The notes under the pieces are model-generated. The model saw only the letters and a program-made list of their open reading frames with translations. It ran no database searches and was not told where the DNA came from. Positions 36,969 through 54,879 of a stretch of 64,000 nt of DNA are shown here, piece by piece. The DNA comes from Pseudomonadales bacterium (GTDB lineage: Bacteria; Pseudomonadota; Gammaproteobacteria; Pseudomonadales; UBA5518): assembly GCA_022072145.1 (NCBI GenBank), contig JAJVIG010000004.1, positions 3,919-67,918 on the forward strand, written 5' to 3'. Position numbers and translations under genes: made by a program. Position 1 is the first letter of the stretch. Each line of letters begins with the position of its first letter.

Positions 36969-36994
36969 TCGAGCGTGCGGCAGCCGGGGAGGGG

Positions 36995-38797: not shown

Positions 38798-39055
38798 CGC
38801 GACGGCTGCCTCCAATCCCGTGTGAGCCGGGTGCCGACCTTGCGCCACTGCCCGGTCCCGTGCGCACCACGCACTCGCCGAGCCGGCAGGGAGCCGTTGA
38901 CCACTCACGTATTTTCGTTTGGATGGCCGCCAAATCAACCTGCACCGAGTGGTACTATTTGGCCGCGGAAGCCGCATTTTTGCGCTTTGAGACAGTCGCT
39001 AATCGGCGGATTTGAAACGAGAATCCATTCGCATCGAAGGACCGGGCGACACCCC

Positions 39056-40192
39056 ATGGCGAGCCACGCAGCAGTCGAGATCGTCGCGGCCGACAGCGCC
39101 GCGCGCCGGCGCGTCTTCCTGCAGTTGCCGCACCGGCTCTACGCGCAGGATCCGCAGTGGGTCGCGCCGCTCGAGTTCGAACTGCGCCAGCGCCTGTGGG
39201 GCGGCAATCCGTACCTGCAGCACGCCAGCGTGCAGGCCTGGGTGGCGTTGCGCGAGGGGCGTCCGGTGGGGCGGATCAGCGCGCAGTTCGACCGCCTGCA
39301 GCAGCAATACCACGACGACATGGCCGGCTCCTTCGGCCTGTTCGAGGCGGAGGACGACCCGCGCGTCGCCGAGGCGCTGCTCGAGGCGGCCGCCGCGTGG
39401 CTGCGCGGGCACGGGGCGCGGTGCCTGCGCGGCCCCCTGAACCTGTCGCTCAACGAGGAGTGCGGGCTGCTGGTCGCGGGCTTCGATACGCCGCCGTCGA
39501 TCATGATGGGGCACGGCCGGCCGTACTACGACGCGCTGCTCGCCGGTTGCGGGCTGCGCGGGGTGCGCGACCTGCTCGCCTACCGCGTGGCACCGGACTT
39601 CGCCGCGCCGCGCGTGATGCAGCGGCTCGCCGGTTCGCTCGCCGGACAGGTGCGCGTGCGCCCGTTGAGTCGCGCGCACAAGGCACGCGACCTCGGGATC
39701 CTGCGCGAGGTGTTCAACGACGCGTGGTCGCAGAACTACGGCTTCGTGCCGTTCACGGTCGAGGAGTTCGACGAGGTCGGCCGGTTGATGATGCTGCTGC
39801 TGCCCGAGGACTACGTGCAGATCGCCGAGGTCGACGGCGAACCCGCGGCATTCATCGTCGCCATGCCGAACATCCACGAGATCACCGCGAAGTTGCACGG
39901 GCGGCTGCTGCCGTTCGGCTGGCTGCGGCTGCTGTGGGGCGTGAAGGTGCGCCACCCGAAGAGCGCGCGCGTGCCGCTGATGGGCGTGCGCCGCCGCTAC
40001 CAGCACTCGCGCCTCGGTCCCGGGCTCGCGTTCATGGTGATCGATGCCGTGCGCAAGGGGCTGTGCGCGCGCGGCGTGCGCGCAGTGGAACTGTCGTGGA
40101 TCCTCGAGGACAACGCGGGGATGCGCGGCATCATCGAGGCGATCGGCGGCACGGTCTACAAGCGGTACCGCCTCTACGAGAAGGCGCTCTAG
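39056..40192 (+). CDS. Large GNAT-fold N-acyltransferase (candidate bacterial ceramide synthase)
   Basis: 378 codons from ATG 39056, the tail of track ORF 37016..40192. C-terminal GNAT-like core (VRRRYQHSRLGPGLAF...VELSWILEDNAGM). Divergent from the FAAL gene. Confidence 0.7.
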   Translation: MASHAAVEIVAADSAARRRVFLQLPHRLYAQDPQWVAPLEFELRQRLWGGNPYLQHASVQAWVALREGRPVGRISAQFDRLQQQYHDDMAGSFGLFEAEDDPRVAEALLEAAAAWLRGHGARCLRGPLNLSLNEECGLLVAGFDTPPSIMMGHGRPYYDALLAGCGLRGVRDLLAYRVAPDFAAPRVMQRLAGSLAGQVRVRPLSRAHKARDLGILREVFNDAWSQNYGFVPFTVEEFDEVGRLMMLLLPEDYVQIAEVDGEPAAFIVAMPNIHEITAKLHGRLLPFGWLRLLWGVKVRHPKSARVPLMGVRRRYQHSRLGPGLAFMVIDAVRKGLCARGVRAVELSWILEDNAGMRGIIEAIGGTVYKRYRLYEKAL

Positions 40193-40195: not shown

Positions 40196-41011
40196 ATGTC
40201 CGACCGCTCCGCCGCCCCGTCGTTCGCCGCCATCGTGCTCGCCGGCGACCGCTCCGCCGCCGACCCGCTGGTCGCGGCGTCCGGACGCGGCGCCAAAGCG
40301 CTGCTGGCGATCGACGGCACGCCGATGCTGCTGCGCGTGCTGGACGCACTGGCGCGTTCACGCAGCGTGGGCGCGGTCACGCTGAGCGGTCCGGCGCACG
40401 AGGCGGTCGCCGCCGACGCGCTGCTGCAGCGCCGGCTCGCCGATGGCGCACTCGCATGGGTGCCCGCACAGGCCACGCCGAGCACCAGCGCCGCGCAGGC
40501 GCTGGCCGGCATCGACGCGCGCACACCGGTGCTGCTGACCACCGCGGATCATCCGCTGCTCGCGCCGGCGATGGTCGAGCATTTCTGTGCCGCCGCGCTG
40601 GCGAGCGGCGCCGACGTCGCGGTGGGACTCGCGCCGTATGCGCTGGTGTGCGCGAACTTCCCGACCATGCGCAAGACCGTGCTGCGATTCAGCGACGACG
40701 CGTACTGCGGCTGCAACCTGTTCGCGTTCCTCACGCCGGCCGGGCGCCGCATGGCGGATCTGTGGCGGGCGGTGGAGGCCGAGCGCAAGTCGCCGCTGAA
40801 GGTGATGCGGATGCTCGGCTGGACGTCGGTGCTGCGCTACCGGATGGGGTGGTTGTCGCTGGACGGTGCCGCGCAGGCGCTGTCGCGGCGCACCGGGATC
40901 GCGATCGCAGCGGTCACGCTGCCGTTCGGCGATGCCGCGGTCGACGTCGATTCGCCCGCGGACTTCACGCTGGTCGAACAACGCCTGCGCGCGCTGCGCG
41001 GCGCCGCCTGA
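40196..41011 (+). CDS. MobA-like NTP-transferase domain protein
   Basis: 271-aa ORF with N-terminal AAIVLAGDRS...KALLAIDGTPMLLRVLDAL, typical of GT-A/MobA-like nucleotidyltransferases. Lies 3 nt after the GNAT gene. Confidence 0.65.
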   Translation: MSDRSAAPSFAAIVLAGDRSAADPLVAASGRGAKALLAIDGTPMLLRVLDALARSRSVGAVTLSGPAHEAVAADALLQRRLADGALAWVPAQATPSTSAAQALAGIDARTPVLLTTADHPLLAPAMVEHFCAAALASGADVAVGLAPYALVCANFPTMRKTVLRFSDDAYCGCNLFAFLTPAGRRMADLWRAVEAERKSPLKVMRMLGWTSVLRYRMGWLSLDGAAQALSRRTGIAIAAVTLPFGDAAVDVDSPADFTLVEQRLRALRGAA

Positions 41012-41035: not shown

Positions 41036-42136
41036 TCAGACGGGCAGGATGCGCATTTGCTGGTAGAGGCGCACGTACTTGCGCACCATGTCCAGCGAAT
41101 CCTCGCAACCGTGGAAGCCCGCCTTGCGCAGCTTGATCGTGCTGACCAGACCCCAGCGCAGCGGATCGCTGCCGGCGGGCAGGTCCATCACGTTGCTCAT
41201 CTCCAGCGAGCCGCTGAACAGTTCGGTCACGTCCTCGGGAGCGTGCAGGCCGTAGCGCCTGACCATCGCGGGCCACATCCCGGCCATCTCGCGCACCTCC
41301 TGCGCGGCGTTCACCCGGCGCGGTTCGCCGAGCGCCATGCCGAAGCAGTCGGCGACCACCGGAAAGCGTTCCCGATGCGATACCACGTCGCCGTTGGAGA
41401 TGTTGAAGGTCTCGTCGCGCGCCGCCGGCGCGTCCGCGGCCCAGGCGAGCGCCTCGGCGATGAGGTCGGCGTCGGTGGCCTCGTTGACCATGCAGACACC
41501 GGCGGGCAGCGGCAGGTCGAGCCCGGCCTCGCGCCGCAGCGCGGCGTACAGGGGCAACATCAGGAAGGCGTTCATCGGCGAGCCGATCGCCGCGCCGGCG
41601 ATGCCGACCGGGCGCCACACGGTCCAGTGCCAGCCCTGCCCGTGCTGGCGCGCGCGGATGTAGTCTTCCTGCTCGTGATAGAAGTTCGGGTGCACCGGCC
41701 GCGGCAGGCATTCGCGCATCGGGATCGGCACGTGGGCATCCGGCAGGTGGCAGCCGTAGGCCTTGGCGCCGTGCACCAGCGACACGTGCCGCAAGCCCTT
41801 GGCGACCGCGACCAGCGGTTCCATCAGGTTGCGCAGCATCGCGGCGTTCTTGGCGATCTGCACCGGATCGGACCAGCCGCCATAGATGTCGTCGAGTTTC
41901 TCGGCGACCGCCGTGTACACCACGTGCGTGACCTCGCTCATCGCGCCGAAGGCCGCAGCGCAGGCGCGCTCGTCGGCCAGATCCACCGCCACGTGGCGCA
42001 CGCGCGCCGGCATCGCGAGCGGCGGGCGCCGCGACACCGCGATCACGTTCCAGTCCTCGCGGGCGCCGAAGTAACGCACGGCGGCGCTGCCTACCAGACC
42101 GGACGCGCCGGCGACGATGATCGTTCTGCTGCTCAT
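41036..42136 (-). CDS. SDR-family NAD(P)-dependent oxidoreductase (extended SDR)
   Basis: 366 codons from ATG 42134-42136. Rossmann motif IIVAGASGLVGSA. Confidence 0.8.
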   Translation of the reverse strand: MSSRTIIVAGASGLVGSAAVRYFGAREDWNVIAVSRRPPLAMPARVRHVAVDLADERACAAAFGAMSEVTHVVYTAVAEKLDDIYGGWSDPVQIAKNAAMLRNLMEPLVAVAKGLRHVSLVHGAKAYGCHLPDAHVPIPMRECLPRPVHPNFYHEQEDYIRARQHGQGWHWTVWRPVGIAGAAIGSPMNAFLMLPLYAALRREAGLDLPLPAGVCMVNEATDADLIAEALAWAADAPAARDETFNISNGDVVSHRERFPVVADCFGMALGEPRRVNAAQEVREMAGMWPAMVRRYGLHAPEDVTELFSGSLEMSNVMDLPAGSDPLRWGLVSTIKLRKAGFHGCEDSLDMVRKYVRLYQQMRILPV

Positions 42137-42183
42137 GCATGGCTCCTGTGTGATGGGGGTGCGCCGTCTCGCCGCCGCGGGCC

Positions 42184-43122
42184 TCAGGCCGTACGCGACA
42201 CCTCGAAGCTCGCGAGCGGTCGCTGTACGAACGTTCCCGACGCGGCGTCTTGGCGGCGTGCGTCGATGCGCACCTGCCAGCCGCCCGTGCCCGGCGTGAC
42301 GGTGCAGACATTGTATTCGGCGGCGTGGGCGGACAGCACGCCCGCGGCCGAAGCCGACGGGATGCCGAACACCGGAATCGCGCTGCCGGGGACGCGGATC
42401 AGGCTCTGCAGCGCGCGGTGACGGTGCCCGTGCAGCACCAGGTCGACCGGCGCGCGGCGCAGCAGCGCGCACAGCGCCGCGGCATCGATGAGCCGCTTGC
42501 GCCACTTCTCCTCGCCCGGCACCGGCGGATGGTGCAGCAGCAGCACGCGCAGCAACCCGCGACCGCGCAGTCCCTCGAGCAGGGATTCGAGCCGCGCGAG
42601 CTGCGTGGCGCCGATGCGCCCGATCGCCATGAACGGCGGCGAGGCGATCGCGCTGTCCAGCCCGATGAACGCCACCGCGCCGCGCACGCGCAGCAGCGGG
42701 AACGGATCGTCCGCGCGGCGTCCGTCGGGAGGCGCGTCGGAACGCATGAACTCGCTCCACTGGCCGCAGGATTCCTCCCACGTGCCGCGCACATAGCGGT
42801 CATGGTTGCCGGGCACCACGGTCACGCGGTCCGGGCTGCCGATCGTCTGCAGCCAGCGGCGGGCGGAGGCGAATTCCTCGGGCAAGGCGATGTTCGTGAG
42901 GTCGCCGGTGACGACGGTGTGGTCCGGCGCCAGCGCGAGCAGGTCGGCGCGCAGCGCGTCCAGCATCTCCGGGCGGTGCTCGTGGCGACGCCGGCGTTGC
43001 CACGACAGGTAGCCCAGCACGCGCTTGCTCGCCAGGCGCCGCCAGCGCACCGCCGACAGATCCGAGAGGTGCGGATCGGACAGGTGCGCGAAACGGAATG
43101 CTCCGTGGGCGCCGGAACTCAC
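42184..43122 (-). CDS. Calcineurin-like metallophosphoesterase
   Basis: Motifs FAHLSDPHL, VVTGDLTN, VVPGNHD, LLLHHPP, LVLHGHRH. There is no in-frame ATG near the N-terminus; GTG 43120-43122 overlaps the upstream TGA (GTGA). Confidence 0.85.
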   Translation of the reverse strand: MSSGAHGAFRFAHLSDPHLSDLSAVRWRRLASKRVLGYLSWQRRRRHEHRPEMLDALRADLLALAPDHTVVTGDLTNIALPEEFASARRWLQTIGSPDRVTVVPGNHDRYVRGTWEESCGQWSEFMRSDAPPDGRRADDPFPLLRVRGAVAFIGLDSAIASPPFMAIGRIGATQLARLESLLEGLRGRGLLRVLLLHHPPVPGEEKWRKRLIDAAALCALLRRAPVDLVLHGHRHRALQSLIRVPGSAIPVFGIPSASAAGVLSAHAAEYNVCTVTPGTGGWQVRIDARRQDAASGTFVQRPLASFEVSRTA

Positions 43123-44303: not shown

Positions 44304-44542
44304 CCGGTGAGATCCGCGACGGTGCGCGCCAGGTCGCCGGCGGTGCGGATCCCGGACAGGGCGTTGAGCGGGAACGACAGGTCGAATTCGTCCTCGATCT
44401 GTTCGATGACCTCCATCACGTCGATCGACGACAGTCCCAGTTCGCCGGCGAGATCGCTGTCGGCCGTGATCGGCCGCGAGGTCTTGCCGGGTGCCGCGAG
44501 CAGTTCGAGCACCCGCGTGAGGCAGGAATCGTAGCGTGCCAT
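44300..44542 (-). CDS. Acyl carrier protein (dedicated, pathway-specific)
   Basis: 80-aa ORF with the phosphopantetheine attachment motif LGLSSIDVMEV. Its stop overlaps the spt ATG (ATGA). Confidence 0.9.
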   Translation of the reverse strand: MARYDSCLTRVLELLAAPGKTSRPITADSDLAGELGLSSIDVMEVIEQIEDEFDLSFPLNALSGIRTAGDLARTVADLTG

Positions 44543-44633
44543 CGTGCGTTTTTCCCGAGCGGCGCGGCGTGTCGCGCCAACGCGGGCGATTATACTGGGG
44601 CGGTTGCGCGCCGCACCTCCCGCCGCCGCGCCA

Positions 44634-45728
44634 ATGTTGGTGATTTTCAGGTACGTGTCAGTCATCCCCGGTGCTTCGCCTCCCTTGGTCTGGATCATCG
44701 CCGCGTACCGCGCCGGCGAACAGAGCCAGTTGCTCGCGCTCGCCGAGGCGCTCGGGTGGCCGTACGAGGTCAAGCGGCTGCGCCACCGGCGCGCCGGCGC
44801 GCTGTACGACGTGACGCGCGCGAACGGACTGTGTGGCATCGATCGCGCGCGCTCCGATGCGCTCGCGCCGCCGTGGCCCGAGGTGGTGATCGCGGCCGGG
44901 ATGCGCAACGAGCCGGTGTGCCGCTGGATCCGCCACGCCTCGGGCGGGCGCACGCGCATCGTGCACATCGGGCGTCCGTGGGCGCCGCTCGCCGCCTTCG
45001 ACCTCGTGGTCACCACGCCGCAGTACCGCCTGCCGCCGGCGCCGAACGTGTTGCAGAACACCTTGACGCTGCACCGTGTCACGCCGGCGCGGCTGGCCGA
45101 GGCCCACGCAGTGCACGGCGAGCGCCTCGCGCGGCTGCCGTCGCCGCGCATCGCGCTGATCGTCGGCGGCCCGAGCGGACCGTTCCACTTCGGCGCGCGC
45201 GGCGCGGCGCGGCTCGCACGCGAGGCGTCGGCGCACGCGCACGCGCTGGGTGGCAGCCTGCTGGTCAGCACCAGTTCGCGCACGCCGGCGCCGGCGGTGC
45301 GTGCGCTGTGCGAGGCAATCGAGGTGCCGCACGAGTTCTACGCGTGGCGCGCCGGCGATGCCGGGAATCCGTATTACGCGTATCTCGCCTGCGCCGAGAG
45401 GCTGATCGTGAGCTTCGACAGCATCGCGATGATCTCGGAGGCCTGCGCTACCGGCAAGCCCGTGTACCTGTTCGATCCGCAACGCGCGCACGGCGGTGAC
45501 GCGGCGCCCGCGGTCGAGCACAGTCCGCGCGCGCTCGGCTACCGCGCCCTGCTGCGCTGGGGGCCGCGCCGGTTGGGGCGCGACATCACGCTGGTGCACG
45601 ATCGACTGCTCGCGGCCGGGCGCGTCGCGTGGCTGGGCGAGGGGCGCGAACCGCAGGACCTGAATCCGTCGCCCGACATCGAACGCGCGGTCGCGCGCGT
45701 GAGGGCGCTGCTCGATGAGCGCCGCTGA
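44634..45728 (+). CDS. ELM1-like (DUF1022, 'mitochondrial fission ELM1') family protein
   Basis: 364 codons from ATG 44634 within track ORF 44544..45728. Family assigned from overall resemblance (VWIIAAYRAGEQSQ..., IALIVGGPSGPF, LLVSTSSRTP, SIAMISEACATGKPV). TATACT at 44591-44596 could be its -10 element. Confidence 0.6.
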   Translation: MLVIFRYVSVIPGASPPLVWIIAAYRAGEQSQLLALAEALGWPYEVKRLRHRRAGALYDVTRANGLCGIDRARSDALAPPWPEVVIAAGMRNEPVCRWIRHASGGRTRIVHIGRPWAPLAAFDLVVTTPQYRLPPAPNVLQNTLTLHRVTPARLAEAHAVHGERLARLPSPRIALIVGGPSGPFHFGARGAARLAREASAHAHALGGSLLVSTSSRTPAPAVRALCEAIEVPHEFYAWRAGDAGNPYYAYLACAERLIVSFDSIAMISEACATGKPVYLFDPQRAHGGDAAPAVEHSPRALGYRALLRWGPRRLGRDITLVHDRLLAAGRVAWLGEGREPQDLNPSPDIERAVARVRALLDERR

Positions 45729-45749: not shown

Positions 45750-46826
45750 CTAGCGCGGGCGGTGCGAGGCTGCCGCGATCGCCAGCGCGATCGCCGCCGC
45801 GATGCAGATCGGCACCAGCACCACGATGCCCTGGCGCAGCCCGAGCAGCTGCCCGCCGGTGTGCAGGATCTGCGTGAACAGGTAGAAACCGACGCCGGCC
45901 ACCGCGCCGCCGAGCACCCGCCAGCCGAAGCCCGCGCTGCGCGCGCTGCCGAAGTGCCAGCCGATCACCACCGCGAACAGCACCATCACCGCAGCCGACA
46001 GGGGCAACGTGGCTTTCTGCCAGAAGGCCATGCGCACCTGCGCATCGTCCTGGCCGGTGGCGCGCAGGTGGTCCGCGTACGCGAGCAGCGCGCTCGGGGA
46101 CATCGCGGCCAGCGAGCGCCCCAGCGCCGGGAGTTCGTCGGCGGACCAGAACGGCCCCAGCTCGAGGCGCTCCAGCGTGCGCATCTCGATGCCCTGCGGC
46201 TGCCATTCCTTGAAGCGCACCTCGCGCAGCGTCCAGGCGCGGGTCTGCGGCACCTCGGCCGACGTCGCGCCGATCACGCGCCGCAGACGGTGATCGGGTC
46301 CGAACTCGTACAGCGCGATTCCTTCCGGGATGTGCCCGTCGCGCAGGTGGCGCACGTTGAAGAAGCGCCCGCCGCTGCGCGACCACAGCCCCTGGCCGGC
46401 GAGCAGGTCGAGGTTGCCGGTGCGCCGCACCACGCGTTCGGACTCCGCCTTCTGCAGCATCGGTGCGACCAGCCATTCGCCGGCCGCGTACAGCCCCGCG
46501 ACCACCAGCAGCGTCGGCAGCGCGGCGATCGCGAGCAGTTGCCTGAGCGAGACGCCGGCACCGCGGATCACTACCAGTTCGCTCGAGCGGCTGAGGTTCG
46601 CGAGCGCGAGCACGGTGCCGAGCGCCGTTATCACCGGCGCGAGTTCCAGCACGCGCTGCGGCGTGGTCAAGAGCACGTACTGCAGCGCGTGCGTGAAATG
46701 GTAGCGGTCACCGAGGTTGTCGAGCTCGCTGACCAGCGCGAGCAGGCTGAACAGTGCCGCCAGCACCGTGAACACGATCAGCCAGCCGCGGACCAGATGT
46801 CCGGCGACGAAACGCGCGATGATCAC
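45750..46826 (-). CDS. lptG: LPS export ABC transporter permease LptG
   Basis: 358-aa YjgP/YjgQ-family permease. It overlaps the lptF stop by 4 nt. Confidence 0.9.
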   Translation of the reverse strand: MIIARFVAGHLVRGWLIVFTVLAALFSLLALVSELDNLGDRYHFTHALQYVLLTTPQRVLELAPVITALGTVLALANLSRSSELVVIRGAGVSLRQLLAIAALPTLLVVAGLYAAGEWLVAPMLQKAESERVVRRTGNLDLLAGQGLWSRSGGRFFNVRHLRDGHIPEGIALYEFGPDHRLRRVIGATSAEVPQTRAWTLREVRFKEWQPQGIEMRTLERLELGPFWSADELPALGRSLAAMSPSALLAYADHLRATGQDDAQVRMAFWQKATLPLSAAVMVLFAVVIGWHFGSARSAGFGWRVLGGAVAGVGFYLFTQILHTGGQLLGLRQGIVVLVPICIAAAIALAIAAASHRPR

Positions 46827-47896
46827 CCGCGCGCCCTCGCGAGCCGCAGCCGCGGCCAGCCGAGCAGCATCGCGAGCAGCGCCAGCGGCGGCAGGTACGC
46901 GAGCAGCAGGCCGGGGAATGCCGGGACGTCACCGTTCTCCAGCGAGTTGCGCACGCCGCTCAGGATGGCGAACAGCAGCAGATAGGCACCGATAGCAACC
47001 GCCAGCGTGCTCGCTCTCGGCTGGCGCGGGTTCGCGCGGGCGAGCGGCACCGCGAGCAGTCCCAGCATCAGGGTCGACAGCGGTGTGCTGAGACGCCACT
47101 GGTACTCCGCGATCTCCTTCGGTTCAGTGGAAGCGGCCAGCACCGCGGTGGCCGCCGACTTGCGGCGGAAACGCTCGATGCGCTCCTCCTGCGGGAAGCG
47201 GATCAGGAAGCTGCCGAAGCGCATCTCCACGTCGCGCGGGCCGTCGCGCTCGAGCAGGTACGAGTAGCCGTCGAAGAACTCCACCGAACGCGATCCCTCC
47301 TCGTCCATGTCATGGATGCGCGCGCTCGTGGCCGCGATCACCTGCGAGCGCAGGCCCTGATCGACCTGCACGAACACGTCGCGCAGTTCGCCGGCCGCGG
47401 CATCGACTTCCTGTGCGTACAGCACGTAGCCGCCGTTGCCCATGTCCACGAAGGTGCCCGGACGGATGTTCGAGATGTCGAAGCGGCTGATGCTGCGCTG
47501 TTCGAGTTCGTAGCTGCGCGTGTAGACCCACGGGCGCACCTGGGTCGAGATCCATCCCACCAGCAGCGCGCAGAGCAGCGCGAGCTTGCCCACTGCCCAC
47601 AGCACGCGGACCTCGCCGATGCCGGCGGACTGCATCGCTGCCATCTCGGACTCGCGGTGCAGACGCCCGACCGCGAGCAGCACGGCGAGGAACAGCGTGG
47701 TCGGAATCAGTACCTCCAGCGACACCAGCGTGTTCAGGAAGATCAGCTCGGCGACCACCGGTGCGGCGATTTCCCCGCTCGCCGCCTCCGACAGACGCAC
47801 GGCCGTGCTGAAGGCGACCGACACGGTGGCCAGCATCGCGAGCCCGGCGGCGAAGGGCCGCAGGATCTCGGAGGTGAGGTAGCGCTCGATCAGCAT
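46823..47896 (-). CDS. lptF: LPS export ABC transporter permease LptF
   Basis: 357 codons from ATG 47894-47896 (MLIERYLTSEILRPF...). YjgP/YjgQ family. Confidence 0.9.
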   Translation of the reverse strand: MLIERYLTSEILRPFAAGLAMLATVSVAFSTAVRLSEAASGEIAAPVVAELIFLNTLVSLEVLIPTTLFLAVLLAVGRLHRESEMAAMQSAGIGEVRVLWAVGKLALLCALLVGWISTQVRPWVYTRSYELEQRSISRFDISNIRPGTFVDMGNGGYVLYAQEVDAAAGELRDVFVQVDQGLRSQVIAATSARIHDMDEEGSRSVEFFDGYSYLLERDGPRDVEMRFGSFLIRFPQEERIERFRRKSAATAVLAASTEPKEIAEYQWRLSTPLSTLMLGLLAVPLARANPRQPRASTLAVAIGAYLLLFAILSGVRNSLENGDVPAFPGLLLAYLPPLALLAMLLGWPRLRLARARG

Positions 47897-47987
47897 GCGC
47901 GGTCCAGTTCGGGGTGGGCAGGGGTGGATGTCGAGGGCGCCATTGTAAAGAAGCGGCCCGGCTCTGGCACCGGCCGTTCGCCGCGCT

Positions 47988-48722
47988 TCAGCCGAGCGCC
48001 GCGCGCACCCGCTCGAGGTCCGCCGGGGTGTCGACCGCGATGCTCGCGGTCGCCAGGGCGAGCATGTGCACCTCGATGCCGAGATCCAGGAAGCGCAGGA
48101 TCTCGATGTCCTCGACCCGCTCGAGCGGCGGACGCTCGCCGGCGGCGACGAAAGCCGCCAGCTGCTGGCGCGAGAAGGCGTAGATGCAGACCTGCTTGTG
48201 CGCGCCGGCAAAGGCGCCGCTCTTGCTGCACGGGATCGCGGCCCGGCTCATGTAGAGCAGCCGGCCGTCGCGCGCGGCCGCGACCTTCGGCACGTCGCGG
48301 GACCTGAACTCGCGCTCGTCGGTGATCGCGGTCATGGCGTTCACCACCGCCCGCGCGCCCAGGCGGCGGAAAGTGTCGGCGACGCGCACGATGTCCTGCG
48401 GATCGATCAGCGGCTCGTCGCCCTGCACGTTCACGATGAAGCCGCTCTCGATCCGTGCGGCGGCGCGGGCCACGCGATCGGTGCCGGTGGCGCAGTCGGG
48501 CGGCGTCATGATCACGCGGGCGCCAAAGGACGCGCAGGTCGCGCGGATGCGCGCGTCGTCGGTCGCGACGAACACGCGATCGCGCGTGGCGGCAGCGCAG
48601 CAGCGCTCCCAGACGTGGTGGATCATCGGCTTGCCGTGGATGTCGGCGAGCGGCTTGCCCGGGAAACGCGACGAGGCGAAACGGGCCGGGATCACGATCG
48701 CGAACTCAGCTGGCGACGGCAT
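47988..48722 (-). CDS. kdsB: 3-deoxy-manno-octulosonate cytidylyltransferase-like (CMP-Kdo synthetase family)
   Basis: 244 codons from ATG 48720-48722. IVIPARFASSRFPGKPLADIHGKPMIHHV, TGTDRVA, VNVQGDEPLI and VDTPADLERVR are colinear with E. coli KdsB. Whether this is the housekeeping copy cannot be told from this window. Confidence 0.75.
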   Translation of the reverse strand: MPSPAEFAIVIPARFASSRFPGKPLADIHGKPMIHHVWERCCAAATRDRVFVATDDARIRATCASFGARVIMTPPDCATGTDRVARAAARIESGFIVNVQGDEPLIDPQDIVRVADTFRRLGARAVVNAMTAITDEREFRSRDVPKVAAARDGRLLYMSRAAIPCSKSGAFAGAHKQVCIYAFSRQQLAAFVAAGERPPLERVEDIEILRFLDLGIEVHMLALATASIAVDTPADLERVRAALG

Positions 48723-50337
48723 GCAGTTCACCCTGGTCAACGGGGTAGCTGGTCGGGGTCGCGGCGGCGAGCGTGAGGCCCGCGCGCTCCAGCGCCGGGC
48801 GTGCCAGCGCCAGCAGTTCGAGCATCTCCTGCTGGCGTGGATCACCGGCCGCGAAGCCGTCGAAGCCGGCCAGCAGCACGCGGCGGGCGCCGCCGGCCAC
48901 GCACAGCGCGAGCGCGTATGCGCAGGCGAGCGGCGCCGGCAGCACGCAGCCGTCGCGACGCGCCTCGAAGCAGTGTCCGCGCAGCTCGCAGTCGTAGTCG
49001 AGCACGGTGGCGTCGCGCAGCGTCGCGCGGGTCTGTGCGTCGTGCAGGCGCCGCGGCGTCCATACCGGCTTGCCGCTGGCAGCCAGGTGGCTCGCCTCGC
49101 ACAGCAGTCGCAAGGCATCGATGCAGACGAAGGCATCGACCAGGTGCGGGTCGAGCGCGTCCTGGCGGTTGAGCGCGAGCACCAGCGGCCGCCGGGCGCG
49201 TATGTAGTCGCCAAGCTCGCGTACGCGCCGGCGCGCCCCGTCGCCGGCGCCGATCAGCAGTACCTCGGCGCCGGCGAAGCGGCCCAGATCCGGTGCGGCG
49301 CGGGCCGCGGCGGGCGGCGCCGCAGGCGCGAAGGCGTGCATGGTCAGCGCGATCTCGCTGCGGCTGAAGCGGCTCGCATCGCGCGCCGCGAGCGCGCGCA
49401 GCGCCGCGAAGCGCTCCTCGGGTGAATAGCGCGGATCACCGATCAGCGTCTGCGCGAACATCGGATGGATGCCGCGCAACGCGCAGTAGTGGTAGTAGAA
49501 ACCCGGTCCCCAACCGTGGCGGCGGCGCAGGGGCACGAAATACCGCTCGCACAGACGCTGCAGCTCCCGCAACCGCTCGTCGTGCGCGCCGCCGGTGTCG
49601 AGCTCGCAGAGCAGCAGTTCGAGCGCCGCGTTGCCGGCGCCGCGCCCCATGCCGGCGACCGTGCAATCGGCCACGCACGCGCCGTGCGCGATCGCCGCCA
49701 GGGTGTTGGCCACCGCCAGCGAGCGGTTGTCGTGCGCGTGGAAGCCGAGCTCGCCGCGCCACTGCGTCCTCACCGCCGCACAGGCGCGCGCGGTCGCGGC
49801 CGGATCCAGCGCACCGAAGGAATCCGCGAGGCAGAGGATCTGCACGCAACCCCAGCCGGCGACGTCGCGCGCCGCCTGTGCGAGCCGCGCCGGCGCGATG
49901 CCCGCGACCTGCATCAGGTTCAACCCCACGCCATAGCCGAGGCGAGCCAGCGCCTCGGCGATCGCGCGGCTGCGCCCGAGGTCGGCGAGCCGCACCGCGA
50001 TGCGCACCAGCGCCACCCGCGAGGCGGCACGCGGCGCGAAGGCGCGCACGATCGCGGCGCCGGGATCGTCGGCTGCGGCCAGCGCGTCGTCGGCATCGAC
50101 CATCACCGCCACGTCCAGCGCGGGCGGGATGTCGAGGGTGTCGAGCAGGGCGTCGCTCGCGTGGGCGAACGGGCCGGCGCCCGGCAGCTCGCGCAGCGCG
50201 CGGAAACCGGGCTCTACGATGTCCACACCGACCGCCGCGAGCGTGTGCAGATACGTCGTGACCAGACCGGCATCGAAGCGCCAGCCGGTGTGGTAGCCGC
50301 CGTCGCGCAGCGTGCAGTCGAGGATGCGCGGCCTCAT
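48706..50337 (-). CDS. HMGL-like (pyruvate-dependent) aldolase domain protein with a long C-terminal extension
   Basis: 543-aa ORF. The N-terminus ILDCTLRDGGY...GFHAHDN...AGMGRGAGNA is the HMGL/DRE-TIM aldolase signature. The C-terminal ~230 aa (LLIGAGDG...) is of unknown function. Confidence 0.75.
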   Translation of the reverse strand: MRPRILDCTLRDGGYHTGWRFDAGLVTTYLHTLAAVGVDIVEPGFRALRELPGAGPFAHASDALLDTLDIPPALDVAVMVDADDALAAADDPGAAIVRAFAPRAASRVALVRIAVRLADLGRSRAIAEALARLGYGVGLNLMQVAGIAPARLAQAARDVAGWGCVQILCLADSFGALDPAATARACAAVRTQWRGELGFHAHDNRSLAVANTLAAIAHGACVADCTVAGMGRGAGNAALELLLCELDTGGAHDERLRELQRLCERYFVPLRRRHGWGPGFYYHYCALRGIHPMFAQTLIGDPRYSPEERFAALRALAARDASRFSRSEIALTMHAFAPAAPPAAARAAPDLGRFAGAEVLLIGAGDGARRRVRELGDYIRARRPLVLALNRQDALDPHLVDAFVCIDALRLLCEASHLAASGKPVWTPRRLHDAQTRATLRDATVLDYDCELRGHCFEARRDGCVLPAPLACAYALALCVAGGARRVLLAGFDGFAAGDPRQQEMLELLALARPALERAGLTLAAATPTSYPVDQGELHAVAS

Positions 50338-51260
50338 CGCAGCACCCCGTCACGCCACAGGCGCCACAGCAGGGCCCAGACGAAGAGCAGCGGGTGACGG
50401 CGCACGCGCTCGGGGATCTCGATCCGGTGTCCGCTGTGGCGCTCGAGTTTCCACGCGATGTAGTCGAAGCCACCCTCGAAGGTCGCCAGCGCCTTCAGCA
50501 GCCGCGCGATCGACAGCAGCTTGCCCTGCACGCGGCGCAGCCGCCACGCGATCCGCGCGCGGCGTCGTGCGGCCTGCGGCACCTGGCTGCGCACGCGCAC
50601 GCCGTCGAGTTCCAGCGGCCAGCGCAGCGCCGCGCGCACCTCGCGCGTCGCCGCCTCGAAGAAAGCGCGGTTCGCCTCGACCAGCGTCGCGGCGCGACCG
50701 CCGCCCTCGACGCGCAGCTCGGTCGCATAGCTGAGCGCGAGCGCCTGCGCCCACAGTTCGGGCAGCGGGGCGCTGGCCGGCAGCGCCGGCAAGGTGCGGT
50801 CGAGGAAGGTGATCGCAGCCCGGCGCAGTGCCGCGCGCACCCGCTCCAGTGATTGCGCGTCGCGGTGGTACACCACCGCAACCGGTTGGCAGAGCCGGCC
50901 CCAGCCGTAGGATTCGAACCATGCCGGCGACACGGCGCGTTGCAGTTCGCCGAGCGACCACACGCCGTACTTGCTGCGCACGGTGCCGGCCGCGGATGCC
51001 GCCTGCAGGTAGTAGACGTTGGGCGCCAGCGCGCGGTTCGCCAGTGCCTCCAGCGTGCCGGCGTGCGCCGCGCGGTGATCGCGCACGATCACGTACAGGT
51101 CGACCAGACCGTCGAGCAGCTCGCCGCTGCGCAGGCAGGAGCCGTAGAACAGCACCGCGTCGATCGCCTCGCCGTGGCGCGCGCGCAGCGCGGCAAGCAG
51201 TGCATCGAGCGCGCCCTGCGCGCTGCCGGAAGGCGTGTACAGCGGACCGAAGACCGTCAT
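50334..51260 (-). CDS. Tam41/Mmp37-like nucleotidyltransferase (family assignment tentative)
   Basis: 308-aa ORF. LFYGSCLRSG...VDLYVIV...NVYYLQ...SKYGVWSLGELQRAV...YGWGRLCQPV resembles the Tam41 (mitochondrial CDP-DAG synthase) pattern YGSG...DfI..V...vYyN...KYGVis...L..DL..W..lY.aGRl.KPV. ATGA overlaps at both ends. Confidence 0.5.
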   Translation of the reverse strand: MTVFGPLYTPSGSAQGALDALLAALRARHGEAIDAVLFYGSCLRSGELLDGLVDLYVIVRDHRAAHAGTLEALANRALAPNVYYLQAASAAGTVRSKYGVWSLGELQRAVSPAWFESYGWGRLCQPVAVVYHRDAQSLERVRAALRRAAITFLDRTLPALPASAPLPELWAQALALSYATELRVEGGGRAATLVEANRAFFEAATREVRAALRWPLELDGVRVRSQVPQAARRRARIAWRLRRVQGKLLSIARLLKALATFEGGFDYIAWKLERHSGHRIEIPERVRRHPLLFVWALLWRLWRDGVLR

Positions 51261-52240
51261 CGCGGCAATCCCAGCAGGCGCACTTCGCCGGCCACCGCGA
51301 GGTGCAGCGGGCGGGGTGCGTCGGTGCTGCGGTAGAGTTCGCCGTCGAGCGTGAACACGCCGTCGAAGTCGAGCCCGAGCGCGTCGATGCGGTGGCTGTG
51401 GTAGCCGTTGACCGGTGTCATGCGGTGGGTGCGGCGCCCGGCGAGCAGCGGCGGCAGGGAACGCAGGAAATGCGGCGCACGACGCTCGACGGCGGTGAAC
51501 AGCAGCCTCCCGGTGCCTTCGTCGCAGAACGGGTGGATGCCGAGGAACAGCCGTTCGAGCGCGCTGGCCACGATCAGGCGGAACTCGCCGTCGAGCGGCG
51601 CGCCGCTGGCCTCGGTGATGCGCGCGCGCAGCGGCTCCGCGAAACCCTCATGGCCGCGCAGCATTCCCCACAGCGTGCGTGCGAGCGCCAGCCCCGGACC
51701 GGCGTCACCGCGCGGACCGTGCGCCTTCACGCGGCGGTTCCAGTATTCGATGCCATCGACCACGGCGCCGGCGCCGAAGATGAAGCCGTGCCCCAGTGCG
51801 CGGCCGTCCGCGCCGCGCACGCCGATCACCGGGCGCACGATCCGGCGCACCTCGCCGGCTTCGCCGCGCCGCCACGCCAGCAAGCGTGCGAGCGCGTCGG
51901 GCAGTCCGCCACGCATCCCGGTGTCGGCGGCGGTCACGTTCGAGGTGCCGCCGGGCAGCGCACAGACGAGCGGCATGCTGGTGAACGGCGAGCGTTCGAC
52001 CAGCAGGCCGACCACGCGCGCCAGGCTGCCGTCGCCGCCGTTCACCGCCAGCGTGTCTACCCCGTCGCGGGCGAATTGGGCCAGCGTCGCGGCCAACTGC
52101 TCCGGATCCCGCGTGACCACGTGATGAACGCCGTGCGCACCGGCGAGCAACGCGCTGACGGCCTCGAGCCCGCGCCGGTTGTGGCCGCTGTGTGGATTAC
52201 TGATCACGCCGAGGCGCGGGGGGGAATCAGGTGCTGGCAT
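51257..52240 (-). CDS. Lipid kinase of the DAGK-catalytic-domain family (YegS/LCB5-like)
   Basis: 327 codons from ATG 52238-52240. LGVISNPHSG, VNGGDGSL, LPGGTSN are DAGK_cat motifs. Confidence 0.8.
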   Translation of the reverse strand: MPAPDSPPRLGVISNPHSGHNRRGLEAVSALLAGAHGVHHVVTRDPEQLAATLAQFARDGVDTLAVNGGDGSLARVVGLLVERSPFTSMPLVCALPGGTSNVTAADTGMRGGLPDALARLLAWRRGEAGEVRRIVRPVIGVRGADGRALGHGFIFGAGAVVDGIEYWNRRVKAHGPRGDAGPGLALARTLWGMLRGHEGFAEPLRARITEASGAPLDGEFRLIVASALERLFLGIHPFCDEGTGRLLFTAVERRAPHFLRSLPPLLAGRRTHRMTPVNGYHSHRIDALGLDFDGVFTLDGELYRSTDAPRPLHLAVAGEVRLLGLPR

Positions 52241-52350
52241 GGCGCCGCCGGCGCGGGGTTCCTGCGGTAGAGTCGTGGCGGCGAGTATACGGGGGCGCGC
52301 GCATTCCCGATAATCGCCGTCGCCGCCAGACCCGCAGCCGGAGACCACCG

Positions 52351-54724: not shown

Positions 54725-54879
54725 TGTCTTTTCGGCACGGGTTGCGCAGCGCCGCGCGCCGGTCTCGCTGCCGCGCTTCCGGAACGGTGCGGCCGATACC
54801 ATCGGGGCACGCGGATCGTTGCACGGCGGATCGCCAGCCTGCAAGCTGTGGCCGGTGGCCAGCGAGCAGGAGTGAGGTG

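What the first reader, a model, noticed from the sequence alone, without database searches (positions are those of the whole stretch)
47988..52240. Coupled operon of lipid kinase, Tam41-like nucleotidyltransferase, HMGL aldolase and KdsB-like cytidylyltransferase: candidate novel anionic head-group pathway
Four minus-strand genes are packed with overlaps: kinase/Tam41-like ATGA at 51257-51260, Tam41-like/aldolase ATGA at 50334-50337, and aldolase/KdsB-like overlapping by 17 nt. The logic can be read as follows. (i) A DAGK-family kinase phosphorylates a lipid alcohol; the Caulobacter ceramide kinase CpgB belongs to this family. (ii) A Tam41-like enzyme could convert the phospholipid to a CDP-lipid, as Tam41 does with phosphatidate. 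(iii) A pyruvate-dependent aldolase could build a 3-deoxy-2-ulosonic-type acid. (iv) A KdsB-like enzyme would CMP-activate that acid. Together with the adjacent ceramide cluster, this predicts a phospho-linked acidic sugar or acid head group on ceramide. I do not know of such a combination having been described. The chemistry is inference only.
Basis: inference. Interest (0 to 1): 0.75.

Follow-up and report, generated by a model that had tools for sequence, protein, structure and literature searches.

The report
Sphingolipid operon with Kdo-like sugar module
Four overlapping genes beside a ceramide-synthesis cluster join the ceramide kinase and Tam41-like enzyme already known from Caulobacter to a widespread but unstudied two-gene module that probably makes a CMP-activated, Kdo-like acid sugar, which points to an undescribed anionic bacterial sphingolipid.

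Summary
Four minus-strand genes (47988-52240) overlap by 4, 4 and 17 nt, and all four domain calls hold.

The DAGK-type kinase plus Tam41-like pair next to spt matches the published Caulobacter cpgB/cpgC pair. CpgB is a proven ceramide kinase. CpgC has already been proposed to make an NDP-ceramide.

The other two genes are not part of that pathway. With the KdsB/KpsU-like cytidylyltransferase (and usually a HAD phosphatase) it forms a widespread, uncharacterised module. That module normally sits in polysaccharide loci.

Only a small clade has it inside the kinase/Tam41/Elm1-glycosyltransferase/LptFG cluster: 3 of the 80 species genomes with the closest Tam41-like relatives, plus several metagenome contigs. 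The linkage survives rearrangement.

The locus has no cpgA-type CDP-alcohol transferase. No gene follows the MobA-like transferase in the position cpgD holds in Azotobacter and Pseudomonas luteola.

Best reading: a ceramide-phosphate lipid carrying a Kdo-like ulosonic acid. It is a new variant of the CPG-type pathway, and the chemistry is inferred only.

The parts
51257..52240 (-). CpgB-like lipid (ceramide) kinase, 327 aa; no predicted TM segment
   Evidence: Pfam DAGK_cat 6e-13. GGDG motif 'VNGGDGS' at about residue 66. It lies directly upstream of the Tam41-like gene in 70 of the 74 related loci that have enough upstream DNA. Its stop overlaps the next start in ATGA.
50334..51260 (-). Tam41-like (CpgC-like) putative nucleotidyltransferase, 308 aa
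   Evidence: Pfam Tam41_Mmp37 28.1 bits against a cut-off of 24. A family profile hits PDB Tam41 6ig2 at E=0.004 across the KYGV...W..Y..GR..PV region. Invariant G40-S41 ... D54. 1439 homologues.
49318..50337 (-). N-terminal DmpG-like DRE-TIM aldolase domain, plus helical subdomain, of the 543-aa fusion protein
   Evidence: Pfam HMGL-like 2e-29. PDB 3dxi 1e-34 and 4-hydroxy-2-oxovalerate aldolases 4lrs and 1nvm. Invariant R11, D12, H200 and H202. AF2 pLDDT 90.
48706..49317 (-). C-terminal MptE/SteA-like Rossmann-type domain of the same protein (residues ~345-543)
   Evidence: AF2 pLDDT 94.5. Best Foldseek matches are SteA 9hmz and MptE HPPK 8sd5, probability 1.0, TM about 0.5. Pfam MptE-like matches weakly in 8 of 24 members. 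The best profile hit in PDB is 8sd5, E=0.046. The domain almost always occupies residues ~340-540 of ~540-aa proteins.
47988..48722 (-). KdsB/KpsU-like cytidylyltransferase, 244 aa (module-type paralogue)
   Evidence: Pfam CTP_transf_3 3e-41. NCBIfam NF009905 292.7 bits (cut-off 255) and TIGR00466 155.4 bits (cut-off 155.2). Best PDB hit is E. coli KpsU 1gq9 at 3e-45. 38% identical to E. coli KdsB. It has Gln and Ile where KdsB and KpsU have His and Gln.
47942..47970 (-). Sigma-70-like promoter match in the 91-nt gap between the KdsB-like gene and lptF
   Evidence: Consensus scan, 9 of 12 matches. No terminator-like site lies in the gap. A consensus match only.
46823..47896 (-). LptF-type permease
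   Evidence: Pfam LptF_LptG 1e-55. TIGR04407 285.9 bits, cut-off 230.
45750..46826 (-). LptG-type permease (4-nt overlap with lptF)
   Evidence: Pfam LptF_LptG 1e-53. TIGR04408 260.9 bits, cut-off 240.
44544..45728 (+). Elm1-like putative GT-B glycosyltransferase (the true start is probably ~30 codons downstream)
   Evidence: Pfam Mito_fiss_Elm1 1.4e-62. Homologues are ~364 aa. One to three paralogues occur in 57 of 80 related loci. The family belongs to Pfam clan CL0113 and is predicted to be a glycosyltransferase in Acinetobacter outer-core loci (PMC4172580).
43119..44303 (-). Serine palmitoyltransferase
   Evidence: NCBIfam NF047599 607 bits, cut-off 500.
42184..43101 (-). Calcineurin-like metallophosphoesterase (same family type as Caulobacter CC_1158)
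   Evidence: Pfam Metallophos 7e-13. Homologues at 47-63% identity lie next to the kinase in 29 related loci.
41036..42130 (-). SDR/PRISE-type reductase (CerR candidate)
   Evidence: Pfam PRISE, Epimerase and NAD_binding_10.
40196..41011 (+). MobA-like nucleotidyltransferase (CC_1153-like by position)
   Evidence: Pfam NTP_transf_3 1.5e-13. It directly follows the bCerS-like ORF, as CC_1153 follows CC_1154 (PMC11324152 S2 Table). Present in 29 of 80 related loci.
39047..40192 (+). bCerS candidate (381 aa, no Pfam or NCBIfam hit)
   Evidence: Assigned from the translation and from its position. Homologues at 51-62% identity occur in 27 related loci, each beside the MobA-like gene. Identity with bCerS was not tested directly.
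36995..38800 (-). Fatty acyl-AMP ligase (AasR-like)
   Evidence: NCBIfam NF006624 814 bits. Pfam AMP-binding.
36024..36990 (-). Second SDR/epimerase-type gene downstream of the ligase (alternative CerR candidate)
   Evidence: The translation starts with 'VTGATGFIG'. It was not scanned against Pfam.
52241..52350 (.). 110-bp divergent intergenic region upstream of the kinase gene (presumed operon promoter)
   Evidence: Sequence read. The consensus scan found no match there.

Best explanation
The four genes form one translationally coupled operon for cytoplasmic head-group assembly on ceramide. They sit inside a ceramide-synthesis and Lpt-export locus.

Step 1 (inferred from Caulobacter CpgB). 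The kinase phosphorylates ceramide to ceramide-1-phosphate.

Step 2 (inferred; unproven even in Caulobacter). The Tam41-like protein activates or extends the phospholipid. The most plausible reaction is C1P + CTP to CDP-ceramide.

Step 3 (inferred from family). The DmpG-like domain condenses pyruvate with an aldose or aldose phosphate to give a 3-deoxy-2-ulosonic acid. This is a PEP-independent route, unlike KdsA or NeuB.

Step 4 (inferred). The KdsB/KpsU-like enzyme converts that acid to its CMP ester. Two changed motif residues suggest that the acid is not ordinary Kdo.

Step 5 (speculative). The acid is transferred to the phospho-ceramide head group. The transferase would be either the neighbouring Elm1-like GT-B enzyme or the MptE-like domain fused to the aldolase.

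Step 6. The finished anionic lipid is flipped and then extracted by the adjacent LptF/LptG.

The aldolase fusion and the cytidylyltransferase are a mobile cassette borrowed from polysaccharide loci. In this lineage no CpgA/CpgD-type (CDP-glycerate) genes were detected in the locus.
For: Coupling and intactness. The overlaps are 4, 4 and 17 nt. The same four genes occur in L004 with dN/dS of 0.20-0.35.

Sphingolipid context. Spt, a fatty acyl-AMP ligase, a bCerS-like ORF, SDRs, a MobA-like transferase and a metallophosphoesterase lie within 12 kb. Several of these correspond to Caulobacter CC_1165, 1162, 1158, 1154 and 1153 (PMC11324152).

The kinase-Tam41 pair. The kinase lies directly upstream in 70 of 74 related loci. 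CpgB is a demonstrated ceramide kinase (PMC10331486). CpgC is Tam41-like and is required for CPG.

The module is tied to this cluster, not merely adjacent.
- It is present in the window, L001-L004, L006, L007 and L093.
- In L093 it lies in a different operon and orientation, yet still within the kinase/Tam41/Elm1/sulfotransferase/LptF cluster.
- In L088 it sits beside an alkaline ceramidase gene.

Enzyme families.
- The aldolase domain keeps the metal ligands D12, H200 and H202 and is closest to pyruvate aldolases.
- The cytidylyltransferase is closest to KpsU and KdsB and keeps the QGDEP motif and the DTP aspartate.
- Fusions of aldolase, MptE-like domain and CTP_transf_3 exist (P0082, P0083, P0111). 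This shows that the two genes work together.
- A canonical-type KdsB coexists with the module-type enzyme on contig L092.

Other points. None of the four proteins has a predicted TM segment. No CDP-alcohol phosphotransferase motif occurs in the window or in 89 loci.
Against: - No biochemical data exist for any member of the aldolase-MptE family, for the module-type cytidylyltransferase or for bacterial Elm1-like proteins.
Published gammaproteobacterial orthologues are only 29-32% identical to them.
- The DmpG catalytic histidine position appears to be Tyr in this family ('RDGGY'). This rests on my memory of the DmpG motif.
- The window and L004 lack the HAD phosphatase and the 314-aa protein that accompany the module in relatives. 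The module here may be incomplete, or it may depend on genes elsewhere.
- LptF and LptG pass the NCBIfam equivalog cut-offs and could be the housekeeping pair.
- The MptE-like fold resembles pyrophosphokinases more than any glycosyltransferase, so the transfer step has no supported catalyst.
- Outside this clade the module sits mostly in polysaccharide loci.
Confidence: 0.5

Rival explanations
1. The module makes a CMP- or CDP-activated non-sugar or short hydroxy-keto acid, which becomes the second anionic unit of a CPG2-like lipid. It would replace CpgD (CDP-glycerate synthase) and CpgA functionally. The order would be aldolase, then MptE-like (pyro)phosphokinase, then cytidylyltransferase. 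The product would be ceramide-phospho-acid-phospho-acid rather than a glycoside.
For: - The locus keeps CC_1153-like and CC_1158-like genes, but no CDP-alcohol transferase motif (cpgA type) was found and no gene sits in the cpgD position.
- The C-terminal domain is closest to pyrophosphokinase-type folds (MptE HPPK, SteA), not to glycosyltransferases.
- In the triple fusions the domain order is aldolase, MptE-like, CTP_transf_3. That matches a make, phosphorylate, cytidylylate sequence.
Against: - Characterised CTP_transf_3 enzymes (KdsB, KpsU, NeuA) make CMP esters of 2-ulosonic acids from the free anomeric hydroxyl, not CDP esters (established family knowledge). This protein passes KdsB-type NCBIfam cut-offs.
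- A HAD phosphatase accompanies the module in most loci. That fits a KdsC-like dephosphorylation better than a phosphorylated final substrate.
Confidence: 0.2
2. The aldolase fusion and the KdsB-like gene serve LPS core, O-antigen or capsule synthesis rather than the sphingolipid. They lie here only because they travel with lptF/lptG. The KdsB-like enzyme may even be the housekeeping CMP-Kdo synthetase.
For: - In Pseudomonas sp. Q1-7, Magnetospirillum sp. UT-4 and another genome, the module lies in Wzm/Wzt- or GT-rich polysaccharide loci.
- LptF and LptG here pass equivalog cut-offs.
- The organism makes lipid A: lpxD and lpxA are in the window.
- The protein would be named KdsB under NCBI's rules.
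Against: - The aldolase start overlaps the Tam41-like stop in ATGA, so the genes are co-translated with the sphingolipid genes.
- The module stays within the kinase/Tam41/Elm1 cluster after rearrangement (L093).
- The module-type enzyme has Gln and Ile where E. coli KdsB and KpsU have His and Gln. It coexists with a canonical-type KdsB in L092.
- It is always paired with the aldolase fusion, which ordinary Kdo synthesis does not need.
Confidence: 0.15
3. The kinase and the Tam41-like enzyme act on a glycerolipid or polyprenol rather than ceramide. For example, diacylglycerol goes to phosphatidate and then CDP-DAG, and the cassette decorates a non-sphingoid lipid carrier.
For: - CpgB phosphorylates diacylglycerol in vitro about as well as ceramide (PMC10331486).
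- Tam41 itself uses phosphatidate.
- Spt lies within 10 kb in only 1 of 80 related loci.
Against: - The window has spt 3.7 kb away, together with other ceramide genes.
- 19-29 of 80 related loci carry the acyl-AMP ligase, bCerS-like and MobA-like genes next to the kinase.
- Nearly all genera with cpgB homologues have sphingolipid genes (PMC10331486).
- The window already encodes the canonical CdsA.
Confidence: 0.07

Closest known systems
Caulobacter crescentus ceramide (di)phosphoglycerate pathway, cpgA-D (CC_1152-CC_1161) with LptF2/LptG2
   Same: A DAGK-type kinase is followed by a Tam41-like protein, next to spt. The same neighbourhood holds a bCerS-like ORF, a MobA/CofC-like transferase, a metallophosphoesterase, an acyl-AMP ligase and an LptF/LptG pair. 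All enzymes appear to be soluble and cytoplasmic.
   Different: No CDP-alcohol phosphotransferase (CpgA type) was detected, and no gene sits in the CpgD position. Instead there are an aldolase-MptE fusion, a KdsB-like cytidylyltransferase and an Elm1-like GT-B protein. Gene order also differs. Sequence orthology to CpgB and CpgC was not tested directly.
Kdo activation and transfer to lipid: KdsA/KdsC/KdsB-WaaA, and the capsule system KpsU-KpsS/KpsC, which puts beta-Kdo on (lyso)phosphatidylglycerol
   Same: The cytidylyltransferase is 38% identical to E. coli KdsB, and its best PDB hit is KpsU (3e-45). A HAD phosphatase accompanies the module in relatives, as KdsC does. The acceptor would again be a phospholipid.
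   Different: The acid would come from a class II pyruvate aldolase fold, not from a PEP-dependent KdsA. His and Gln in two conserved KdsB/KpsU motifs are Gln and Ile here. No WaaA-, KpsS- or KpsC-type transferase is present.
DmpG/BphI 4-hydroxy-2-oxovalerate aldolases (DRE-TIM metallolyases); structural-genomics entry 3dxi (BVU_2661 N-terminal domain)
   Same: It shares the TIM barrel plus helical communication domain, the D...HxH metal site and the conserved Arg. 3dxi belongs to the same two-domain family (E=1e-34).
   Different: Scores fall far below the equivalog cut-off (94.9 against 286 bits). No partner acetaldehyde dehydrogenase is present. It has a 'RDGGY' motif and a fused MptE-like domain.
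Mitochondrial Tam41 (CDP-DAG synthase)
   Same: The Pfam hit is above the gathering score. The KYGV...GR..PV region aligns with PDB 6ig2. A GS...D nucleotidyltransferase motif is present.
   Different: The similarity is very distant (E=0.004 with a family profile). The presumed substrate is ceramide-1-phosphate. No activity has been shown for any bacterial member.
MptE (archaeal HPPK) / SteA / Maf proteins (Pfam PF01973)
   Same: The C-terminal domain shares the fold (Foldseek probability 1.0, TM about 0.5) and the N-terminal G-x-G-P-S-like motif.
   Different: Sequence similarity is marginal. Maf glycosyltransferases are not among the top 50 structural matches. The domain is found almost only fused behind the aldolase.
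Acinetobacter baumannii GtrOC1/GtrOC14/GtrOC19 (Mito_fiss_Elm1 family, outer-core loci)
   Same: It belongs to the same Pfam family, in GT-B clan CL0113, and is predicted to glycosylate a lipid-linked core.
   Different: None has been characterised biochemically. Here the genes sit in a sphingolipid locus, often as two or three paralogues.

Membership tests
Bacterial ceramide kinase (CpgB type) | DAGK/LCB5 catalytic domain with the GGDG ATP-binding motif | tested here: met
   Pfam DAGK_cat 6e-13. 'NGGDGS' is visible in the sequence. The motif is described in PMC10331486.
Bacterial ceramide kinase (CpgB type) | Gene adjacent to a Tam41-like gene and to sphingolipid synthesis genes | tested here: met
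   ATGA overlap with the Tam41-like gene. Spt is 7 kb away. The pair is conserved in 70 of 74 loci.
Bacterial ceramide kinase (CpgB type) | Significant sequence match to CCNA_01218 (the paper used an E-value cut-off of 1e-20) | not tested
Bacterial ceramide kinase (CpgB type) | ATP-dependent phosphorylation of ceramide | not testable with these tools
   Needs an enzyme assay.
CpgC / Tam41_Mmp37 | Pfam PF09139 match above the gathering score | tested here: met
   28.1 bits against 24, covering only profile positions 74-180.
CpgC / Tam41_Mmp37 | Similarity to the solved Tam41 structure | tested here: inconclusive
   Family profile against 6ig2: E=0.004 over 120 residues. No structure model was made.
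CpgC / Tam41_Mmp37 | CTP-dependent formation of a CDP-lipid | not testable with these tools
   This is unproven even for Caulobacter CpgC (PMC12275187).
Caulobacter-type CPG2 pathway | CDP-alcohol phosphotransferase CpgA next to cpgB | tested here: not met
   No DG..AR...G...D...D motif occurs in any frame of the window or of 89 loci.
Caulobacter-type CPG2 pathway | CpgD (COG1213 phosphoglycerate cytidylyltransferase) after the CC_1153-like gene | tested here: inconclusive
   Only one MobA-like transferase (40196-41011) follows the bCerS-like ORF, and the next gene is on the other strand. I had no CpgD sequence to compare. Its only PDB hit is TTHA0179.
KdsB (CMP-Kdo synthetase) | CTP_transf_3 fold and a score above the NCBIfam KdsB models | tested here: met
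   NF009905 292.7 bits (cut-off 255). NF003952 249.5 bits (cut-off 193). TIGR00466 155.4 bits against 155.2, which is borderline. Best PDB hit KpsU at 3e-45.
KdsB (CMP-Kdo synthetase) | Catalytic QGDEP motif and C-terminal DTP aspartate | tested here: met
   Alignments.
KdsB (CMP-Kdo synthetase) | His in 'L(K/R)H(V/L)G(I/L)Y' and Gln in 'LEQLR', both shared by E. coli KdsB, KpsU and the canonical-type copy in L092 | tested here: not met
   The window and all module-linked copies have 'KQVCIY' and 'IEILR'. That these positions contact Kdo rests on my memory of the KdsB and KpsU structures and was not checked.
KdsB (CMP-Kdo synthetase) | Sole, essential copy supplying lipid A-Kdo | not testable with these tools
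   Only 64 kb of this genome is available. In related contig L092 a canonical-type copy coexists with the module-type copy.
4-hydroxy-2-oxovalerate aldolase (DmpG/BphI) | DRE-TIM barrel with D/H/H metal site | tested here: met
   D12, H200 and H202 are invariant. Foldseek against 1nvm: TM (target) 0.80.
4-hydroxy-2-oxovalerate aldolase (DmpG/BphI) | Equivalog-level score and a partner acylating dehydrogenase | tested here: not met
   TIGR03217 94.9 bits against a cut-off of 286. No dehydrogenase gene lies in the operon.
MptE-like / Maf (PF01973) | Pfam match, or fold match to MptE | tested here: inconclusive
   8 of 24 members match weakly, best E=0.007, and the window copy does not match. Foldseek against 8sd5 and 9hmz: probability 1.0, TM about 0.5.
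Elm1-like GT-B glycosyltransferase | Pfam PF06258 (clan CL0113) | tested here: met
   1.4e-62. The clan assignment comes from PMC4172580.
Elm1-like GT-B glycosyltransferase | Detectable similarity to characterised lipid-directed GT-B enzymes (LpxB, WaaA, WaaQ) | tested here: not met
   hhalign probabilities below 1%. No PDB hit with a single sequence or with a profile.

The most novel reading that the evidence does not exclude
The locus builds a lipid-A-independent 'mini-LPS': ceramide-1-phosphate (or phosphoglycerate) capped with a previously unknown CMP-activated 3-deoxy-ulosonic acid. The acid would be made by a PEP-independent pyruvate-aldolase route. The aldolase-MptE fusion, the module-type cytidylyltransferase and the HAD phosphatase would then be a new, portable pathway for an acidic sugar. 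Bacteria would plug it into either polysaccharides or sphingolipids, with export through LptFG.
Probability: 0.25. Interest if true: 0.8.

Novelty: new variant of a known kind. Interest (0 to 1): 0.58.

Why it matters
Anionic sphingolipids let Caulobacter survive without lipid A, and they are the target of polymyxin there. How their head groups are built is still largely unknown, including what the Tam41-like CpgC does.

This locus is a natural variant. It keeps the CpgB/CpgC core, but no CDP-glycerate branch (cpgA, cpgD) was detected, and a Kdo-like sugar module and Elm1-type glycosyltransferases are present instead. If confirmed, three things would follow.
1. Bacterial sphingolipid head groups would be shown to be modular.
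2. A sphingolipid would carry the same kind of acidic sugar that defines the LPS inner core. That bears on what the Lpt machinery recognises.
3. A first functional handle would exist on the aldolase-MptE protein family. It has about 1,350 cluster representatives, sits in many polysaccharide loci, and has no characterised member that I could find.

The work also exposes an undescribed Elm1/sulfotransferase-type sphingolipid cluster. It is common in marine Gammaproteobacteria (Halieaceae, Thiogranum, Thiohalobacter) and in Roseovarius.

Tried and rejected
1. C-terminal domain as a Maf-type flagellin glycosyltransferase. This was my first guess from the sequence motifs. Foldseek gave SteA and MptE as best matches and no Maf or GT42 entry in the top 50. 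I kept it only as a minority option.
2. Elm1-like protein as a relative of LpxB, WaaA or WaaQ. hhalign probabilities were below 1%, and PDB sequence and profile searches found nothing.
3. Search for a CpgA-type CDP-alcohol phosphotransferase by motif in the window and 89 loci. None was found; the single relaxed match is an off-frame artefact inside dnaE.
4. Search for an acpR-like acyl carrier protein near spt with a DSL-motif and GC3 filter. Nothing was found. It may lie elsewhere, or the filter may be too strict.
5. The 314-aa protein that follows the HAD gene in relatives has no Pfam or PDB match.
6. Literature searches for the aldolase/cytidylyltransferase pairing, for Elm1 in sphingolipid loci and for ulosonic acid on ceramide turned up nothing relevant.
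7. Direct orthology to Caulobacter CpgB, CpgC, CpgD and bCerS could not be tested.
8. A terminator or separate promoter inside the cassette. None was found. The only terminator-like match, at 49504-49516, lies inside the aldolase gene and is within chance expectation.

Full report
**1.

The window is about 70% G+C, so long spurious ORFs are common. The four minus-strand ORFs nevertheless have solid family matches.
- 51257-52240: DAGK_cat, 6e-13.
- 50334-51260: Tam41_Mmp37, 28.1 bits against a gathering score of 24.
- 48706-50337: HMGL-like, 2e-29.
- 47988-48722: CTP_transf_3, 3e-41.

Reading the DNA confirms the ATGA stop/start overlaps at 51260-51257 and 50337-50334. It also confirms a 17-nt overlap between the aldolase stop (48708-48706) and the cytidylyltransferase ATG (48722).

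A 110-bp divergent intergenic region precedes the kinase. A 91-nt gap with a promoter-like match and no terminator separates the last gene from lptF.

A MAG contig (L004) has the same four genes at 89-94% identity, with dN/dS of 0.20-0.35 for each gene. All four are therefore intact and under purifying selection.

**2. The surroundings**

Downstream on the same strand lie LptF- and LptG-type permeases. Next come:
- a convergent Elm1-like protein;
- serine palmitoyltransferase (NCBIfam 607 bits);
- a calcineurin-like phosphoesterase;
- an SDR;
- a MobA-like nucleotidyltransferase directly after a 381-aa ORF, which I take to be the ceramide synthase from its position;
- a fatty acyl-AMP ligase;
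- a second SDR.

The first 30 kb hold housekeeping genes in the order glnD-rpsB-tsf-pyrH-frr-uppS-cdsA-dxr-bamA-lpxD-lpxA-dnaE-accA-tilS-dnaX-recR. This is a chromosome of an LPS-making proteobacterium with its own CdsA. The nearest relatives are labelled Gammaproteobacteria or Pseudomonadota.

**3. Half of the cassette is already known**

In Caulobacter, CC_1160 (CpgB) is a purified ceramide kinase (PMC10331486). CC_1161 (CpgC) carries the Tam41/Mmp37 domain and is required for ceramide phosphoglycerate. Olea-Ozuna et al. explicitly suggested that it forms an NDP-activated ceramide (PMC11324152).

The same papers assign several further genes to the cluster:
- CC_1159 (CpgA, a CDP-alcohol transferase);
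- CC_1158 (a phosphoesterase);
- CC_1153 (a CofC/MobA-like transferase);
- CC_1152 (CpgD, CDP-glycerate synthase; PMC12275187);
- a second LptF/LptG pair.

The window has counterparts of the kinase, the Tam41-like protein, the phosphoesterase, the MobA-like transferase and LptFG. It has no CDP-alcohol transferase motif anywhere, and no second transferase sits in the CpgD position.

I could not align the window proteins with the Caulobacter proteins themselves. The orthology rests on domain family, on the GGDG motif, on the KYGV...GR..PV region shared with Tam41 and on gene neighbourhood.

**4. The other half is a portable, uncharacterised module**

The 543-aa protein belongs to a family with more than 1,333 hits. 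Nearly all are about 540 aa and come from many phyla.

Its first ~340 residues are a DmpG-like pyruvate-aldolase fold with the metal ligands conserved.

- It models at pLDDT 94.5.
- Its best structural matches are SteA and the archaeal pterin pyrophosphokinase MptE.
- It has weak MptE-like Pfam signals.
- A profile of this domain finds 1,354 cluster representatives. Almost always the domain lies at the same position behind an aldolase domain.

Some relatives are triple fusions that add a CTP_transf_3 domain. The aldolase fusion and the cytidylyltransferase therefore act in one pathway.

In Pseudomonas sp. Q1-7, Magnetospirillum sp. UT-4 and other genomes, the module (with a HAD phosphatase) lies in Wzm/Wzt- or glycosyltransferase-rich polysaccharide loci.

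**5. The cytidylyltransferase is a specialised KdsB paralogue**

Its best PDB match is the capsule CMP-Kdo synthetase KpsU (3e-45). It passes NCBIfam KdsB-type cut-offs and is 38% identical to E. coli KdsB.

All module-linked copies share 'KQVCIY' and 'IEILR'. E. coli KdsB and KpsU have a His and a Gln at those positions. So does a second, canonical-type copy found 10 kb from the module in contig L092 (48% identical to E. coli KdsB).

This pattern suggests a different acid substrate. It also shows that, at least in one relative, the module copy is additional to ordinary kdsB. Whether those positions touch the sugar is my recollection of the KdsB/KpsU structures and was not checked.

**6. The link between the module and the sphingolipid genes**

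A genome-collection scan with the Tam41-like family returned 270 relatives. Among the best 80, one genome per species:
- the kinase lies directly upstream in 70 of the 74 loci with enough flank;
- an Elm1-like gene is present in 57, often as two or three paralogues;
- the MobA-like gene is present in 29;
- the acyl-AMP ligase is present in 19;
- LptF/G is present in 17;
- the aldolase/cytidylyltransferase pair is present in only 3.

Metagenome contigs carrying the closest aldolase homologues (49-54% identity) show the same association (L001-L003, L093).

In L093 the module sits in a different operon and orientation. It is still inside the kinase/Tam41/Elm1/sulfotransferase/LptF cluster. That argues for a functional link rather than accidental linkage.

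In L088 the module is next to an alkaline ceramidase gene.

In relatives the module is longer: aldolase fusion, cytidylyltransferase, HAD and a 314-aa unknown protein, often with a 2OG oxygenase. The window and L004 have only the first two.

**7. Most likely mechanism**

1. Ceramide is phosphorylated (by analogy with a proven enzyme).
2. The Tam41-like enzyme activates or extends it (a published hypothesis, unproven).
3. The aldolase domain makes a 3-deoxy-2-ulosonic acid from pyruvate and an aldose or aldose phosphate (family inference).
4. The KdsB-like enzyme makes the CMP ester (family inference).
5. A transferase attaches the acid to the lipid head group (speculative). The candidates are the Elm1-like GT-B protein, whose family is predicted to be a glycosyltransferase in Acinetobacter outer-core loci (PMC4172580), and the MptE-like domain.
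6. LptFG extract the product.

None of the four proteins has a predicted membrane segment. That fits assembly at the cytoplasmic face of the membrane.

I put about 0.7 on the cassette being a sphingolipid head-group operon. I put about 0.4 on the ulosonic-acid chemistry, and about 0.5 on the package as stated.

**8. Rivals**

- Rival 1. The MptE-like domain is a kinase and the product is a CDP-activated hydroxy acid that replaces CDP-glycerate. This fits the fold and the domain order in the triple fusions. It conflicts with what KdsB-family enzymes are known to do and with the accompanying phosphatase.
- Rival 2. The module serves LPS or another glycan and merely sits beside lptFG. This fits its usual habitat and the equivalog-level LptF/G scores. 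It conflicts with the translational coupling and with the linkage that survives rearrangement.
- Rival 3. The kinase and the Tam41-like enzyme act on diacylglycerol. This is possible in vitro for CpgB, but the ceramide-gene context argues against it.

**9. Novelty and verdict**

The kinase/Tam41 half is a new member of a known kind. The insertion of a Kdo-like module and the absence of a detectable CpgA/CpgD branch make the whole a new variant of the CPG-type anionic sphingolipid pathway.

I found no paper that describes the module family, an Elm1-type sphingolipid cluster or an ulosonic acid on a bacterial ceramide. The held library is incomplete, so that absence is weak evidence.

All of the chemistry is inferred, and the organism is known only from metagenomic assemblies.

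Interest is 0.58. It remains substantial because the module is a clean, testable lead, both for sphingolipid head-group diversity and for an orphan enzyme family.

Noticed in passing
window 58344-58447 and 58481-58583 (minus strand): Two tandem SAM-I/IV riboswitch aptamers (60.9 and 48.4 bits, both above the gathering score). They lie just downstream of a sulfotransferase gene (58697-59956) and upstream of minus-strand ORFs that have no Pfam hit.
   Followed up: no
window 52351-53418 (+): An F420-dependent LLM-class oxidoreductase (TIGR03617, 363 bits against a cut-off of 278) is transcribed divergently from the kinase. It is 99% identical in L004, while the cassette genes are 89-94% identical. 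An F420-family enzyme next to a CofC/MobA-like-containing lipid locus is curious.
   Followed up: no
L008-L083 (e.g. L043 8086-20921; L093): A widespread cluster type occurs in Halieaceae, Thiogranum, Thiohalobacter, Pseudohaliea and Roseovarius. It comprises kinase, Tam41-like, 1-3 Elm1-like paralogues, a conserved sulfotransferase, a 2OG oxygenase, a ~315-aa unknown protein that is about 70% identical across taxa, and often LptF/G plus an MsbA-like ABC transporter. No CpgA-type gene is present. It suggests sulfated or glycosylated phosphosphingolipids that have not been described.
   Followed up: partly
L088 13191-14825: A neutral/alkaline ceramidase gene (PF04734) lies directly after the aldolase / KdsB-like / HAD triad, in a contig that has no kinase/Tam41 pair nearby.
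   Followed up: no
L092 1206-1943 and 11610-12350: One contig carries two KdsB-family genes 10 kb apart. One is canonical-type (48% identical to E. coli KdsB). The other is module-type with the 'KQVCIY'/'IEILR' signature.
   Followed up: yes
P0082, P0083, P0111 (about 780 aa): Natural triple fusions of aldolase, MptE-like domain and CTP_transf_3. P0108 (885 aa) instead carries 4Fe-4S ferredoxin-type domains fused to the aldolase.
   Followed up: no
window 47988-48722 compared with L001 12334-13979: The window and L004 have lost, or never had, the HAD phosphatase and the 314-aa unknown protein that follow the cytidylyltransferase in relatives. They also lack the Elm1 paralogue that sits between the Tam41-like gene and the aldolase gene in those relatives.
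   Followed up: partly
window 36000-45000: No acyl carrier protein (acpR-like) gene was found near spt, although Caulobacter, Azotobacter and Pseudomonas luteola have one beside spt.
   Followed up: partly
window 54583-56127 (+) and 59987-61195 (-): Two DUF1214 proteins flank a Sulfotransfer_3 gene and a TetR regulator. Function unknown.
   Followed up: no
window 43119-44303: Spt scores best with the NCBIfam 'betaproteobacterial' SPT equivalog (607 bits). Yet the housekeeping gene order and the labels of related MAGs point to Gammaproteobacteria.
   Followed up: no
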